From positions 987,331-1,051,330 of the forward strand of contig OY969726.1 of assembly GCA_963702215.1 (NCBI GenBank): a stretch of 64,000 nucleotides of DNA. Direction: 5' to 3'. This document shows, piece after piece, positions 11,472 through 61,426 of the stretch; the stretch's first letter is position 1, and the number at the start of each line of letters is the position of its first letter. Position numbers and translations under genes: made by a program. The notes under the pieces are model-generated. The model was not told where the DNA came from, made no database searches, and saw only the letters and a program-made list of their open reading frames with translations. Origin of the DNA: an uncultured Bacteroidota bacterium. GTDB lineage: Bacteria; Bacteroidota; Ignavibacteria; Palsa-1295.

Positions 11472-13298
11472 ATGAACATAAAACGTTTGACACACGAACG
11501 TCCGCTCGTTTTCGACGGCGCGACGGGGACAAACCTGCAATCGCAAAATCTCACACCGGACGATTTCGGCGGAGAACCACTCGCCGGCTGCAACGAATAT
11601 CTTATTCGTTCCAGGCCGGGCGCGGTCGAGCGCGTTCATTCCGATTATCTGGCCGCCGGCGCCGACATTATCGAGACGGATACGTTCGGCTCGTCTTCGA
11701 TCGTCCTGGCGGAGTATGGCCTTGAAACGATTGCCTATGAGCTTTCGAAAGAAGGCGCGCAGATTGCGAAACGGATGGCAAACCAATTCTCTACGAAGGA
11801 AAAGCCGCGTTACGTGGCCGGATCCATTGGGCCGACAACGAAGCTTCCTTCGCTTGGGCATATCACATTCGATGTCATGCGCGAATCTTATTACGAGCAG
11901 ATGGCCGGCCTGCTCGATGGGGGCACGGATCTTTTCATCATCGAAACGTGCCAGGATTTGCTGCAAATCAAGGCCGCACTCGCAGCGGCGCAGGATTTAT
12001 TTCGCGATAAGCGAACAAAACTTCCCGTTATTACGTCCGTCACGATCGAGACGATGGGAACGATGCTGATGGGAACCGAAATTGCCGCCGCGCTTACCGC
12101 GCTCGAGCCGTACGATGTTATTTCCGCAATCGGGATGAACTGCGCCACGGGCCCGAAGGAGATGGAAGAAAATGTTCGCTATCTCACGCAGACCTCGCCG
12201 CTACCCGTCTTTTGCATGCCGAATGCGGGACTTCCGGAAAATATCGGCGGTGTAGCGCACTATCATCTCACGCCGGAGGAGCTTGAGCATTACATGACGC
12301 ATTTCGTGAATGATCTCGGAGTCGCAATAATCGGCGGCTGCTGCGGCACGACGGACGAGCATATCAAGAAGCTTTCCGAGTTTGCCGCGCGTGGGCGGCC
12401 AGCGACACGTACGATCGAGTGGACTCCTTCGGCAGCTTCGATTTATTCCTCCGTCCCGATGCACGTCGATCCGGCGCCGGTCATTATCGGCGAGCGGTGC
12501 AATACGAACGGCTCGAAGAAATTCCGGGATCTGTTGCTGAAGGAAGAGTGGGATACCGCCGTCTCAATGGCGAAGGAACAAATCAAAGAGGGTGCGCATA
12601 TGCTCGATCTCTGCGTCGCTTATGTGGGCCGCGATGAGGTACGAGACATGCACGAAGTCATCACGCGGATGAATACGGCGGTTACCGTGCCGCTGGTGAT
12701 CGACTCCACAGAATATCCGGTGATCGAAGAGGCGCTGAAGCATTATGCGGGACGCGCCATCGTCAACTCAATTAATTTGGAAGATGGCGAGGAGCGGATG
12801 AAGCACGTTCTGCCGCTGTGCAAGAAATATGGCGCTGCGGTCATCGCGCTCACCATCGACGAAGATGGCATGGCAAAAACGCGCGAGAAAAAATTCCAAA
12901 TCGCCGAGCGCATCATCGACTTATCTATAAATAAATATGGAATGCGCGAAGAAGACTTGATTTTCGATACACTCACGTTCACGCTCGGCTCGGGCGATGA
13001 GGAATTCCGCAAAGCCGGGATCGAAACCATCGAAGCCATTCGGCTAATCAAACAAGCGCACCCGAAGTGCAAAACGATTCTGGGCGTTTCGAATATTTCC
13101 TTCGGACTCAATCCGCACTCACGGCATGTACTGAATTCGGTTTTCTTGAGTTACGCGATCGAAGCTGGCCTCGACATGGCGATCGTCCATGCGGCGAAGA
13201 TCATGCCGCTCCACAAAATCGACGAACGCGGCCGGGAACTCGCCAAGCAGATTATTTATGATGAGCGGGTGTTCGAGGAAATGGCGGTGGCGGCATAG
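11472..13298 (+). CDS. metH: Methionine synthase N-terminal half (homocysteine-binding + folate/pterin-binding domains only)
   Basis: FDGATGT, IETDTFG, GMNCATGP, IGGCCGT, IIGERCN, DSTE, LGVSNISFG. Stops at aa 608 with no cobalamin-binding (DxHxxG) or reactivation domain. Confidence 0.93.
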   Translation: MNIKRLTHERPLVFDGATGTNLQSQNLTPDDFGGEPLAGCNEYLIRSRPGAVERVHSDYLAAGADIIETDTFGSSSIVLAEYGLETIAYELSKEGAQIAKRMANQFSTKEKPRYVAGSIGPTTKLPSLGHITFDVMRESYYEQMAGLLDGGTDLFIIETCQDLLQIKAALAAAQDLFRDKRTKLPVITSVTIETMGTMLMGTEIAAALTALEPYDVISAIGMNCATGPKEMEENVRYLTQTSPLPVFCMPNAGLPENIGGVAHYHLTPEELEHYMTHFVNDLGVAIIGGCCGTTDEHIKKLSEFAARGRPATRTIEWTPSAASIYSSVPMHVDPAPVIIGERCNTNGSKKFRDLLLKEEWDTAVSMAKEQIKEGAHMLDLCVAYVGRDEVRDMHEVITRMNTAVTVPLVIDSTEYPVIEEALKHYAGRAIVNSINLEDGEERMKHVLPLCKKYGAAVIALTIDEDGMAKTREKKFQIAERIIDLSINKYGMREEDLIFDTLTFTLGSGDEEFRKAGIETIEAIRLIKQAHPKCKTILGVSNISFGLNPHSRHVLNSVFLSYAIEAGLDMAIVHAAKIMPLHKIDERGRELAKQIIYDERVFEEMAVAA

Positions 13299-13302
13299 TC
13301 CT

Positions 13303-14835
13303 TCAATACCTATAACTAAAAGTCAGACTCACGTCATTGCGTGTAACAGCGTCGTCCGTGATATTCGCGCTGGCGGCATCGCCTTCAGGCGTAGTGTCGT
13401 TATAGATCGCATGATTCGTGTGATACGTGGAGTGCATGATTGAGGCTTCGAGCGATATCCATTTGCTGAGATCGAACGCGAGTCCACCGGAAATCGCGGA
13501 TGTGCCGTAATTTGTGGGATCGCCTTTCCATGGCGAAGGCTCGAAGTTATATCCGGCGCGCACGCTGACTCCGAGGAATTTATATTCCGCGCCCAACTGA
13601 TATGAAAGCACGCCTCGCAAATCCGCCTGAATAGAATCATTCAAGGCGCTCATGTCGAACGTGCCATTCGAGAACTGAATCTGCGACATATCGGCGTAAC
13701 TCATTCCCAGCGCGGCGGTAAGTCCGAGCAAGTGAATGGATGCTCCCACGCCGATGCGAATCGGCGTCGTGATATCGTACTCCTGCGCATAAACGGGAAG
13801 ATCACTGGCAAAATCCGAAGAAAGCGCGCCGTTGGTTCCGAACGAGGCCGTTCCCGTTTGCGTGGAACTTTCGCGTACGTGCATCCACTCCGGCGTTTCG
13901 AACGTTAGCCCAAAATCGACGATGCTTCGTCGAACCTGAAGCCCAAATTTCAAGCTTCCGCCGCTCTGATCCTGATGGAGAGAGGTTTGGACATTGGCCT
14001 GCTGGAACTTATCTGGCGGCAGGGAACCAGTATCGTGCGCAAAAATGCCATTCACGTCTGTTTCCTGGTAATTCATCGAATAATCGTAGGAACCGAAGAG
14101 GACGTTCACCGTCGCACCGAGGGAGACACCTTCGGCAATATCGACTCCCCCGCCGATGCGAAGGGCGTCCAGCCCGCCGGATTCGGTCACTGTTCCCGAT
14201 TGCCGAATCCCCCCACCGGCCGCTATCGCGCTGTCGGTGAACGGGGTCGTAAGTGTATAGGCGCCGGAATTCGGAACGCCGTAGGTTAGCCCTAGTGCGT
14301 AAGCAAGATTATAATTGGCCAGGTAGTCGCTATTCGTCATGCTGAACGGATTCGTGTGGGTATCCTGCAAAAATCCGTTGGTGTTAAAATAGGAGGAGTT
14401 AGGATTGACGGCATCAAAACCATAGGTTGCCGTGTAATCCCGTGAGCGGTCATACGAAATGCCGATGGCGAAATGCCCTTGCGTGACAGGAAACGGTGCC
14501 GCAATTCCAAGCGTGGAAAACGAGGTCGCGTCAAGAGACTGGTCGGATGCATTGCCGAGGAATTGCGCAGTCGAGCCATGATTGCGGTCGAATAGCGAAG
14601 CCGTAATTTCGCGCTCGGCGAGTGGCGCGATCGCGGCGGGATTCGCTTCGAGCGCATCGACGCCCGTGGCGGCGGAGATGAGGCTTCCGCCCATGGCAAA
14701 TCCGCGAGAGCCACTTGGCAGCGGCTGCATGGAAAGTTCCAACGCCTCCGCAAGCTGCGCCTGCGCGGAGCGGACAACAACCATCGAGGACATCGTGAAG
14801 AGAAGAACTGCGAGGAGTGGTTTCCAGCGATTCAT
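13303..14835 (-). CDS. OmpP1/FadL-family outer-membrane beta-barrel
   Basis: Signal peptide, RGFAMGG...ANPAAIA hatch motif, alternating beta-strands and an aromatic C-terminal SYRY. Confidence 0.8.
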   Translation of the reverse strand: MNRWKPLLAVLLFTMSSMVVVRSAQAQLAEALELSMQPLPSGSRGFAMGGSLISAATGVDALEANPAAIAPLAEREITASLFDRNHGSTAQFLGNASDQSLDATSFSTLGIAAPFPVTQGHFAIGISYDRSRDYTATYGFDAVNPNSSYFNTNGFLQDTHTNPFSMTNSDYLANYNLAYALGLTYGVPNSGAYTLTTPFTDSAIAAGGGIRQSGTVTESGGLDALRIGGGVDIAEGVSLGATVNVLFGSYDYSMNYQETDVNGIFAHDTGSLPPDKFQQANVQTSLHQDQSGGSLKFGLQVRRSIVDFGLTFETPEWMHVRESSTQTGTASFGTNGALSSDFASDLPVYAQEYDITTPIRIGVGASIHLLGLTAALGMSYADMSQIQFSNGTFDMSALNDSIQADLRGVLSYQLGAEYKFLGVSVRAGYNFEPSPWKGDPTNYGTSAISGGLAFDLSKWISLEASIMHSTYHTNHAIYNDTTPEGDAASANITDDAVTRNDVSLTFSYRY

Positions 14836-60649: not shown

Positions 60650-60655
60650 TTTCGC

Positions 60656-61426
60656 GTGACGCGTTTAATTAAATCCGAAGCGGAGATCGCGAAAATGCGC
60701 GCGGCTTCGCATATCGTTGCGGAGTGTTTGAACCACATCGAAACGCTCGTCCTACCCGGCGTTACGCCGGTGGAGTTGAATTCCGAGGTGGAACGATTTA
60801 TCACCGCCCGGGGAGCGTATCCGGCATTCAAAGGATATAAGGTTAAGCGCCAGAAGTTCGAATATGCCGCCTGCATCTCGGTTAATAACGCGGTGGTGCA
60901 TGGCATCCCTTCACGGGAACCGCTCAGGTCAGGAGATATTGTTTCGGTCGATTGCGGTGCGGAAAAAGATGGTTGGTTCGGCGATGGCGCGTGGACGTTT
61001 GCAGTTGGTGAAATCGCTCCCGAGACCGCGAAGCTCATGCAAATCACCCGCGAATCCTTATTGCTCGGCGTGGCGCGCGCGCGCGTGGGCGGACGCCTTT
61101 TCGATATTTCCGAAGCCATTCAGGATTACTGCGAAGCGCAAGGCTACGGCATCGTAAGGGATCTCGTCGGTCACGGCATCGGCAGCCATTTGCACGAGGA
61201 TCCGCAAGTTCCCAATTATGTTCCCGGCCCCTCCGAGGGATTTACCAATATCGAACTGGTTGAAGGCATGACTTTCGCCATCGAGCCAATGATCAATATG
61301 GGAACCGCAAAGGTAAAAACCGCAAAGGACAAATGGACTGTCCTCACCGCCGATGGCAAACCCAGCGCCCATTTCGAGCACACCATCGTCGTGCGAAGAG
61401 GCGGAGGAGAGATTTTGACGAAGTAG
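60656..61426 (+). CDS. map: Type I methionine aminopeptidase
   Basis: CISVNNAVVHGIP, DGWFGD, GHGIG..LHEDP, FAIEPMIN, SAHFEHT. Confidence 0.98.
   Translation: MTRLIKSEAEIAKMRAASHIVAECLNHIETLVLPGVTPVELNSEVERFITARGAYPAFKGYKVKRQKFEYAACISVNNAVVHGIPSREPLRSGDIVSVDCGAEKDGWFGDGAWTFAVGEIAPETAKLMQITRESLLLGVARARVGGRLFDISEAIQDYCEAQGYGIVRDLVGHGIGSHLHEDPQVPNYVPGPSEGFTNIELVEGMTFAIEPMINMGTAKVKTAKDKWTVLTADGKPSAHFEHTIVVRRGGGEILTK

What the first reader, a model, noticed from the sequence alone, without database searches (positions are those of the whole stretch)
11472..61426. Possible lineage-wide gene fission and operon scrambling
Seen: three large conserved enzymes (MetH, CarB, ClpB) each appear as one half with plausible native starts or stops and no partner half within 64 kb, and the spc operon tail is also isolated. 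No intein residues or shared breakpoint sequence were visible. Inference: this genome may systematically encode large multidomain proteins as dispersed two-chain versions. This is the most unusual pattern in the window.
Basis: inference. Interest (0 to 1): 0.72.

Follow-up and report, generated by a model that had tools for sequence, protein, structure and literature searches.

The report
Three conserved split genes in Kapabacteria
This soil bacterium (Kapabacteria, Bacteroidota) really does encode only one half each of methionine synthase, carbamoyl-phosphate synthase and the ClpB disaggregase here, and these are old, conserved gene splits rather than errors; the split ClpB appears to be undescribed.

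Summary
The window encodes only MetH ~1-610 (11472-13298), only CarB ~479-1058 (31492-33291), only ClpB ~430-857 (38219-39554, with a 1-nt frameshift), and an isolated rplO-secY-map block. No partner half lies within the 64 kb.

These are not assembly artefacts or pseudogenes. Halves of the same length, with the same ends, recur in about 40 (CarB) to over 100 (ClpB) protein clusters from independent assemblies of Kapabacteria and neighbouring lineages (62-93% identity). dN/dS, measured for MetH-N and ClpB-C, is 0.03-0.07.

Partner halves exist in relatives:
- **CarB:** in a sister MAG (89% identical) the N-half sits 0.7 kb upstream, separated by a HAD hydrolase gene. Other relatives have overlapping halves or a Spy-like gene between them.
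- **MetH:** the C-half is the translationally coupled next gene in Kryptoniota-like MAGs.
- **ClpB:** free-standing N-halves that end exactly where the C-half begins (the tip of M-domain motif 1) occur on four metagenome contigs.

There are no inteins and no shared breakpoint sequence.

The best reading is three separate, old gene fissions followed by rearrangement. A genome-wide process is not shown. Split MetH and split CarB are known kinds. I found no description of a natural two-chain ClpB.

The parts
11472..13298 (+). MetH N-half: homocysteine-binding and methyltetrahydrofolate (pterin)-binding domains. It ends in the linker before the cobalamin cap domain.
   Evidence: Searches give the domains. 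In one search the ORF stops at the same place in essentially all Kapabacteria, Ignavibacteria and Kryptoniota loci among 80 fetched. dN/dS is 0.025-0.07. Synteny with relatives runs from about 5.5 kb to exactly the stop codon at 13297.
10806..11384 (-). ogt (methylguanine methyltransferase), a conserved upstream neighbour of the MetH N-half
   Evidence: One search gives the domain. Searches show that the ksgA...ogt-metH-N order is conserved in L005-L009 and L062.
30496..31184 (+). MazEF-like toxin-antitoxin pair (antitoxin 30496-30831, PemK/MazF toxin 30828-31184). It occupies the place where a sister MAG has the CarB N-half plus a HAD gene.
   Evidence: Searches identify the pair. Homology to L172 starts only at 31487.
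31492..33291 (+). CarB C-half: end of the oligomerisation domain, second ATP-grasp (carbamate phosphorylation) and the MGS-like allosteric domain
   Evidence: Searches give the domains. About 40 stand-alone homologues of 597-615 aa at 76-92% identity were found. The complementary 507-aa N-half (model positions 1-479) lies 0.7 kb upstream in sister MAG locus L172.
36147..37334 (+). pgk. It sits directly downstream of the CarB C-half in sister MAG L172, but in the window about 2.8 kb of other genes separate the two.
37362..38222 (-). alpha/beta hydrolase. Its start overlaps the ClpB C-half stop, and it is a conserved downstream partner of that gene.
   Evidence: One search gives the domain. The same gene pair occurs in L002-L004.
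38219..39554 (-). ClpB C-half: M-domain helices L2-L4, the segment that returns to the NBD1 small domain, NBD2 and the C-terminal small domain. It corresponds to E. coli ClpB from about residue 430 to the end. One extra G near 39415 breaks the frame.
   Evidence: More than 100 stand-alone homologues of about 440-454 aa were found. dN/dS is 0.04 once the extra G is removed.
59204..60649 (+). secY. The likely true start is near 59321; the listed ORF starts at a TTG further upstream.
60656..61426 (+). map (type I methionine aminopeptidase). It is followed by an unrelated membrane protein rather than infA, rpmJ or rpsM.

Best explanation
The window comes from a soil member of the Kapabacteria (Kapaibacterium-like, Bacteroidota). 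Three large enzymes in it are made as two separate polypeptides because of three independent, ancient gene fissions. Each cut falls at a structurally tolerant point:
- **MetH:** the linker between the folate domain and the cobalamin cap domain.
- **CarB:** inside the oligomerisation domain, between the two synthetase halves.
- **ClpB:** the loop at the tip of M-domain motif 1.

After each fission the two cistrons first stayed together, either overlapping, translationally coupled, or with a small gene wedged between them. Ordinary genome rearrangement later separated them in some lineages, including the one sampled here.

The halves are inferred to reassemble non-covalently.
- CarB should work like the Aquifex CPS.A/CPS.B enzyme.
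- MetH should work like known two-part MetH enzymes.
- ClpB should rejoin by pairing helix L1 (N-half) with helix L2 (C-half), and by docking the post-M-domain segment (C-half) back onto the NBD1 small domain.

Shown here: the boundaries, their conservation, purifying selection, the existence of complementary partner ORFs in relatives, and the absence of inteins. Inferred: physical reassembly, and the presence of the missing halves elsewhere in this particular genome.
For: **Boundaries are conserved in independent assemblies.**
- ClpB C-half: more than 100 protein clusters of about 440-454 aa at 65-93% identity. No protein with both AAA modules scores above 69%.
- The stand-alone ClpB C-half context is seen in JGI, ENA, NCBI and Logan contigs.
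- CarB C-half: about 40 clusters of 597-615 aa at 76-92% identity.
- MetH: the ORF stops at about residue 608 in essentially every Kapabacteria, Ignavibacteria and Kryptoniota locus. It runs on for about 550-585 more residues in Elusimicrobia, Melainabacteria, Cyanobacteria and one Ignavibacteriales MAG.

**Purifying selection.** dN/dS is 0.025-0.07 for MetH-N and ClpB-C.

**Partner halves exist.**
- CarB N-half proteins of 490-507 aa all end at the same motif.
- The CarB N-half lies next to the C-half in several arrangements: an 11-nt overlap (L089/L090), a Spy/CpxP-like ORF in between (L087/L088), or a HAD hydrolase in between in the 89%-identical sister MAG (L172).
- The MetH C-half (580-600 aa) is the next cistron, with a TGATG or TAATG stop-start overlap, in Kryptoniota-like MAGs.
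- Four metagenome contigs carry a 437-442-aa ClpB N-half ending ...LEIEREALKRE plus 2-7 residues, with no C-half in the next 3 kb where the contig extends that far (L097, L109; L100 and L145 end after about 1.9 kb and about 40 nt). This matches the C-half start, which aligns to E. coli ClpB residue 434 onward.

**Split genes co-occur in relatives.** By matching contig lengths, split ClpB and split CarB appear to share a 138.5-kb and an 899.6-kb contig. By matching contig names, split MetH and split CarB share the 1.92-Mb contig.

**Published precedent that such splits work.**
- Aquifex split CPS forms an active complex (PMC6022934, citing Ahuja 2001).
Against: - The ClpB N-half and C-half have not been placed in the same genome. 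The link rests on the matching breakpoint and on both halves occurring in low-GC (~0.36) and mid-GC (~0.50) contigs.
- No MetH C-half was found within 10 kb in any Kapabacteria or typical Ignavibacteria locus. Its presence in this lineage is therefore untested.
- The window copy of the ClpB C-half carries a frameshift. If real, this particular gene would be crippled.
- Physical reassembly of the halves was not tested.
Confidence: 0.75

Rival explanations
1. Assembly or binning artefact: the half genes lie at chimeric joins or mis-assemblies, and the real genome has intact genes.
For: The window does contain at least two single-base frameshifts in otherwise conserved genes, so the sequence is not error-free.
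Against: - Identical gene ends appear in dozens of independent assemblies from different projects and assemblers.
- The halves have proper start and stop codons.
- Upstream synteny is conserved right up to the gene ends.
Confidence: 0.02
2. Decaying pseudogene fragments left behind by rearrangements, with the functions lost or supplied by other enzymes.
For: - The window ClpB C-half has a frameshift at about 39415.
- TIR gene fragments and a toxin-antitoxin module lie near the breakpoints.
Against: - dN/dS is 0.025-0.07 over saturated synonymous divergence.
- Full-length conservation of the halves holds down to 62-65% identity.
- The frameshift is a single base in a reading frame that otherwise matches relatives over 445 codons. 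It is either very recent or a sequencing error.
Confidence: 0.03
3. Some halves work alone or with a different partner rather than with the cognate missing half. For example, the ClpB C-half could form a single-ring AAA+ machine, or the MetH N-half could use an unrelated corrinoid protein, as in three-part MtgC-type systems.
For: - No MetH C-half was found near any Kapabacteria MetH N-half.
- The ClpB halves were never seen adjacent in seven distinct contexts.
- Marine bacteria use modular corrinoid proteins with separate homocysteine and pterin subunits (PMC12478193).
Against: - The ClpB C-half keeps helices L2-L4 and the [15 protein letters not shown] segment. In solved ClpB structures this segment belongs to the NBD1 small domain (established knowledge; alignment). 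These parts have no role without NBD1.
- Stand-alone N-halves with exactly the complementary end exist.
- For CarB the cognate N-half is demonstrably present in a sister genome.
Confidence: 0.15
4. One reading: a genome-wide, systematic tendency of this lineage to encode large multidomain proteins as dispersed two-chain versions.
For: - Three fissions fall among about 50 genes in 64 kb.
- Synteny breaks exactly at the half-gene ends.
- carA is also unlinked from carB.
- The spc cluster is fragmented.
Against: - The three splits differ in age and taxonomic range.
- They differ in junction type.
- Other conserved proteins in the window are full length, and ClpC is intact in a sister MAG.
- A related lineage with split ClpB has the start of the S10 ribosomal operon in normal order, as far as the locus reaches.
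Confidence: 0.2

Closest known systems
[quoted passage not shown] 2001, as summarised in PMC6022934)
   Same: The large subunit is cut between its two homologous synthetase halves. The halves are separate genes, and carA is unlinked. In Aquifex the three proteins assemble into an active complex.
   Different: - This is a different phylum (Bacteroidota/FCB, mesophilic soil lineages).
- The cut lies inside the oligomerisation domain (model position about 479). Whether this matches the Aquifex cut was not tested.
- Relatives show intermediate states not described for Aquifex: overlapping cistrons, or a Spy/CpxP-like or HAD gene between the halves.
Two-part (and three-part) split MetH recognised in GapMind and fitness studies (Price et al., PMC7857596; Phaeobacter/Ruegeria systems, PMC12478193)
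   Same: The homocysteine and pterin modules are on one protein. The cobalamin-binding and activation modules are on another in the Kryptoniota-like relatives.
   Different: - In Kapabacteria and most Ignavibacteria the C-part is not within 10 kb and was not located at all.
- The marine three-part systems use a corrinoid subunit of separate origin, which was not examined here.
ClpB/Hsp104 disaggregase, and the engineered two-fragment Thermus ClpB (Beinker et al. 2005, title cited in PMC4239642)
   Same: The same domains are present with high identity to canonical ClpB. The engineered system shows that the two nucleotide-binding domains need not be covalently linked.
   Different: - This is a natural split, conserved across a wide uncultured clade.
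- The cut is inside the M-domain, at the tip of motif 1, not at a boundary between NBD1-M and NBD2. The regulatory coiled coil itself would therefore be built from two chains.
- Searches of the held library found no paper describing a natural split ClpB.
Split genes joined by trans-splicing split inteins (for example cyanobacterial DnaE)
   Same: Halves of one enzyme are encoded at distant loci.
   Different: No intein sequence is present. The N-halves end 2-12 residues after the homologous region, and the C-halves start within about 10 residues of it.

Membership tests
Two-part split MetH | The N-part carries the homocysteine S-methyltransferase and pterin-binding domains and ends at the inter-module linker. 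| tested here: met
   Searches give the domains. The same stop position is conserved in relatives.
Two-part split MetH | A separate gene for the cobalamin-binding and reactivation modules is present in the same genome. | tested here: inconclusive
   It is absent from the window and from every Kapabacteria locus within +/-10 kb. It is present as the coupled next cistron in Kryptoniota-like MAGs. Whole genomes could not be searched.
Split CPSase large subunit (Aquifex type) | The C-half carries the second ATP-grasp synthetase unit and the allosteric MGS-like domain as a stand-alone ORF. | tested here: met
Split CPSase large subunit (Aquifex type) | A complementary N-half is encoded as a separate ORF in the lineage. 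| tested here: met
   L172, the sister MAG at 89% identity, has a 507-aa N-half matching model positions 1-479. The same is seen in L087-L090. It was not found in the window itself.
Split CPSase large subunit (Aquifex type) | The cut is at the same position as in Aquifex or Methanocaldococcus. | not tested
   No Aquifex sequence was compared.
Canonical ClpB/Hsp104 | Two AAA+ modules and a complete M-domain lie on one polypeptide. | tested here: not met
   Only NBD2 plus M-domain helices L2-L4 are present, aligning to E. coli residues 434-850.
Two-chain ClpB (proposed here) | A free-standing N-half (N-domain, NBD1, helix L1) ends where the C-half begins. | tested here: met
   L097, L100, L109 and L145 carry ORFs of 437-442 aa ending ...ALKRE plus 2-7 residues, with no C-half downstream in the sequence held (3 kb for L097 and L109, less for the two shorter contigs).
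Two-chain ClpB (proposed here) | Both halves are encoded in the same genome and associate physically. | not testable with these tools
The only support is the matching breakpoint and matching GC classes.
Split-intein trans-spliced genes | Intein N- and C-fragments flank the break. | tested here: not met
   There is no extra sequence at any of the three breaks.
Intact S10-spc-alpha ribosomal gene cluster | rplO-secY-(adk)-map is flanked by rpsE/rpmD upstream and infA/rpmJ/rpsM downstream. | tested here: not met
   A lipoprotein gene and TIR fragments lie upstream, and a 390-aa membrane protein lies downstream. Conservation of this arrangement in relatives was not tested.

The most novel reading that the evidence does not exclude
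Kapabacteria and a second, low-GC uncultured group run a naturally two-chain ClpB disaggregase. Its halves would be held together mainly through the M-domain coiled coil, the same element that docks DnaK and toggles ClpB activity. Assembly, stoichiometry or exchange of the two chains could then be a new layer of control over disaggregase activity.
Probability: 0.55. Interest if true: 0.6.

Novelty: new variant of a known kind. Interest (0 to 1): 0.5.

Why it matters
Gene fission is well known, and split MetH and split CarB have precedents, so two thirds of this finding is ordinary biology in a new lineage.

Two things add value.

1. **A full evolutionary series.** One branch of the FCB group holds every stage: fused, then overlapping or coupled cistrons, then a foreign gene wedged between the halves, then dispersed halves. 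This is useful material for studying how fissions arise and become fixed.
2. **A natural split ClpB.** A widely conserved cut through the M-domain would show that the regulatory coiled coil and the NBD1 small domain can be built from two chains. It offers a ready-made system for studying assembly and Hsp70 coupling in Hsp100 machines.

There is also a practical point. Pathway-completeness tools and annotation cut-offs will miss these half-size genes. The MetH and ClpB halves score below the curated whole-protein thresholds in NCBIfam.

Tried and rejected
- **Exact look-ups.** Looking up the three window proteins by exact sequence found nothing. The source genome is not in the collection.
- **Profile search for a ClpB N-half.** A search of the 50%-identity representative library with an Ignavibacteria ClpB N-part returned mostly contig-end fragments and frameshifted sequences. 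No clean N-half was found.
- **Locus scans for partner halves.** tblastn of a ClpB N-half and a CarB N-half against the first 84 fetched loci found nothing.
- **CarB N-half search.** The search seeded with a fused relative did not reach the Kapabacteria N-halves. The Kapabacteria N-half turned up instead by looking beside the C-half in a sister MAG.
- **Cluster-member names.** These gave no taxonomy for the second split-ClpB group.
- **A possible intact ClpB.** The 862-aa Clp ATPase next to carB in L172 was considered. It is ClpC-like, with a short UVR-type M-domain, and scores below the ClpB cut-off.
- **The ORF between the CarB halves.** I suspected a homing endonuclease, but it is a secreted Spy/CpxP-like protein.
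- **Possible corrinoid proteins.** Neighbours downstream of metH-N in relatives were checked and are not corrinoid proteins.
- **ClpX/HslU.** This identity was considered for the 425-aa AAA_2 protein and rejected on NCBIfam scores.

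
Full report
**What is in the window**

Domain and family scans confirm the three half genes.
- 11472-13298(+) encodes 608 aa covering metH model TIGR02082 positions 3-611 of 1182. It has the homocysteine and pterin domains but no cobalamin or reactivation modules.
- 31492-33291(+) encodes 599 aa covering carB model PRK05294 positions 479-1057 of 1058.
- 38219-39496(-) covers ClpB model TIGR03346 positions 468-848 of 853.
- SecY (59204-60649) and Map (60656-61426) follow each other.

tblastn with a MetH C-half, a ClpB N-half and CarB N-halves finds no partner anywhere in the 64 kb. The only hit is the expected paralogous match of a CarB N-half to the CarB C-half.

Many T9SS-tailed BNR proteins point to the FCB group. 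The closest relatives are MAGs labelled Candidatus Kapaibacterium, Kapabacteria, Ignavibacteriota or Bacteroidota, from soil and peat.

**Two corrections to the observation**

1. Relatives' ClpB halves are 440-454 aa and start MATVNQATTTRLHEIEKELAGLQEKR. The window has the same start at ATG 39554, in another frame. A DNA alignment with a relative shows a single extra G near 39415, inside CTCGAG, as the only frame-breaking difference over 1336 nt. With that base removed the protein is 92% identical to the relative over its whole length.
2. An ORF at 58696-59172 is ribosomal protein L15. The isolated ribosomal block is therefore rplO-secY-map.

**Not artefacts and not pseudogenes**

- ClpB C-half: more than 100 protein clusters at 65-93% identity are all about 440-454 aa. 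The longer hits that carry NBD1 parts appear only at 69% identity or less and are labelled Ignavibacteria.
- Contexts read from JGI, ENA, NCBI and Logan assemblies show the ClpB C-half standing alone each time. In the closest relatives it is followed by the same alpha/beta hydrolase gene as in the window.
- CarB C-half: about 40 clusters at 76-92% identity are 597-615 aa. Everything at 66% or below is full length.
- MetH: among 80 genome loci, the ORF stops within a few codons of window residue 608 in essentially every Kapabacteria, Ignavibacteria and Kryptoniota locus (62-90% identity). It continues for 544-586 codons in Elusimicrobia, Melainabacteria, Cyanobacteria and one Ignavibacteriales MAG.
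- dN/dS between the window and relatives is 0.025-0.07 for MetH-N and 0.04 for ClpB-C.

**Partner halves and intermediate states**

*MetH.* In eleven Kryptoniota-like or 'Bacteroidetes' MAG loci, a 580-600-aa C-half is the next ORF. It is usually joined by a TGATG or TAATG stop-start overlap or a 2-nt gap. In Kapabacteria and typical Ignavibacteria no C-half lies within 10 kb.

*CarB.* A search with the N-part of a fused relative returned about 39 stand-alone N-halves of 476-527 aa (most 490-494), all ending ...KIDxWFLxNIKQIVDxExEL plus about 5 residues. Their contexts show three arrangements:
- N- and C-halves overlapping by 11 nt in different frames (L089/L090).
- A 157-161-aa secreted Spy/CpxP-like ORF between them (L087/L088).
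- In the 1.92-Mb contig of a sister MAG whose C-half is 89% identical to the window's, a 507-aa N-half (model positions 1-479), then a HAD hydrolase gene, then the C-half, then pgk (L172).

DNA homology between that contig and the window begins exactly at the C-half start (31487), stops at its end, and resumes at pgk. In the window a MazEF-like toxin-antitoxin pair sits where the N-half and HAD gene would be. Another Kapabacteria genome (77% identical) also has the C-half alone.

*ClpB.* A scan of metagenome contigs with an Ignavibacteria N-part gave 80 loci. In most of them the frame continues for about 420-450 codons into NBD2. In four loci (L097, L100, L109, L145; 78-81% identity) it stops 2-7 codons after ...LEIEREALKRE. 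This gives a 437-442-aa protein with the N-domain, NBD1 and helix L1, and no ClpB C-half in the downstream sequence held, which is 3 kb for L097 and L109 but only about 1.9 kb for L100 and about 40 nt for L145. The C-half aligns to E. coli ClpB from residue 434, the DEASKKRL loop. The two kinds of ORF are therefore exactly complementary, with the cut in the loop between M-domain helices L1 and L2. The N-half contigs fall into GC classes of about 0.36 and about 0.50. The C-half contigs fall into the same ranges (0.35 for L085, 0.48-0.51 for L001 and L002).

**Mechanism**

No break has room for intein sequence. The breakpoints share no sequence of 11 nt or more. The simplest origin for each split is a frameshift or stop with a new start in a linker, or the insertion of a small gene (the L089 overlap, the TGATG junctions). 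Later rearrangement then separated the cistrons.

The half-gene ends are indeed synteny boundaries.
- Upstream of metH-N the gene order is conserved in five relatives up to the stop codon. Downstream regions differ between the window and relatives, and among relatives.
- Around ClpB-C only the gene and its hydrolase neighbour are shared with a 92%-identical relative.

Function as two-chain enzymes is inferred.
- Two-part MetH is recognised, and that of Sphingomonas koreensis was followed in mutant fitness assays (PMC7857596).
- The NBD1 and NBD2 parts of Thermus ClpB need no covalent link (Beinker 2005, cited in PMC4239642).
- For ClpB, the C-half retains helices L2-L4 and the conserved [15 protein letters not shown] segment. 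From established ClpB structures, that segment packs in the NBD1 small domain. This argues that the C-half still works with an NBD1-bearing partner.

**What is not shown**

- The ClpB halves were not placed in one genome.
- The MetH C-half was not located in any Kapabacteria.
- Whether the spc fragmentation is conserved was not tested.
- Whether the lineage has a genome-wide excess of fissions could not be tested. The other conserved proteins in the window are full length, ClpC is intact in the sister MAG, and a related lineage with split ClpB has the start of the S10 operon in normal order.
- The three splits have different taxonomic ranges and junction types. They are best seen as separate events that accumulated on this branch.

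**Comparison with known systems and novelty**

Split MetH and split CarB are known kinds. Here they appear in new lineages, with informative intermediates. A natural ClpB cut through the M-domain was not found in the searchable literature. This is absence of evidence only. I rate the whole as a new variant of a known kind, of moderate interest.

Noticed in passing
window 39415 (minus-strand gene 38219-39554): A single extra G inside a CTCGAG site shifts the frame of the otherwise perfectly conserved ClpB C-half. It is either a sequencing error or a very recent mutation; as a guess, a long-read error at a methylated site.
   Followed up: yes
window 55595-57338 (-), break near 57246-57256; also 58462-58617 (-): A TIR-TPR gene, paralogous to the intact 52403-54229 gene, is frameshifted after its TIR N-terminus. 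A third, 51-aa TIR N-terminal remnant lies just upstream of rplO, at the edge of the isolated rplO-secY-map block.
   Followed up: partly
window 39701-39748: A perfect heptanucleotide tandem repeat (CACGGCG x 6.9) lies inside the 5' coding region (signal-peptide n-region, TAHGARRTAHGARR...) of the BNR surface protein gene, which is divergent from the ClpB C-half. Gain or loss of one unit would shift the frame, as at phase-variable loci.
   Followed up: partly
window 35950-36012: A second perfect heptanucleotide repeat (CTGCGGG x 9) lies about 25 nt upstream of the start of the sigma-70-like gene 35455-35925(-), in the divergent intergenic region with pgk.
   Followed up: no
window 35336-35371 (-): The only Rfam hit above the gathering score in the window is a DUF805b RNA motif (45.7 bits). 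It lies upstream of the uncharacterised 208-aa gene 34680-35306(-).
   Followed up: no
window 59168-59204: A 14-nt tandem repeat (CATGACTTTGAAGC x 2.6) spans the rplO stop and the region before secY.
   Followed up: no
L087 11457-11930 and L088 11674-12159: A small secreted Spy/CpxP-like protein gene (LTxxQ-type, with weak Metal_resist similarity) sits between the two CarB halves in two diverged lineages. In L087 it overlaps both neighbours. Why a periplasmic chaperone-like gene is kept inside a carB operon is unexplained.
   Followed up: partly
L172 9309-10004: In the sister Kapabacteria MAG a HAD-family hydrolase gene overlaps the stop of the CarB N-half and the start of the CarB C-half. An intact ClpC (862 aa) lies about 2.7 kb further upstream (L172 2477-5065).
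   Followed up: partly
L001 7124-9170 and 18205-19326: On a relative's 1.15-Mb contig an ABC-F type ATPase is called as 149-aa and 516-aa pieces; this may be another frameshift, or a split. carA stands alone with no carB next to it.
   Followed up: no
P0084 (Ignavibacteria ClpB, 734 aa, on a 56-kb contig): This otherwise fused ClpB starts right after the N-terminal domain (MKEVRGSQRVTSQ...). The N-domain may be missing or separately encoded in that lineage.
   Followed up: no
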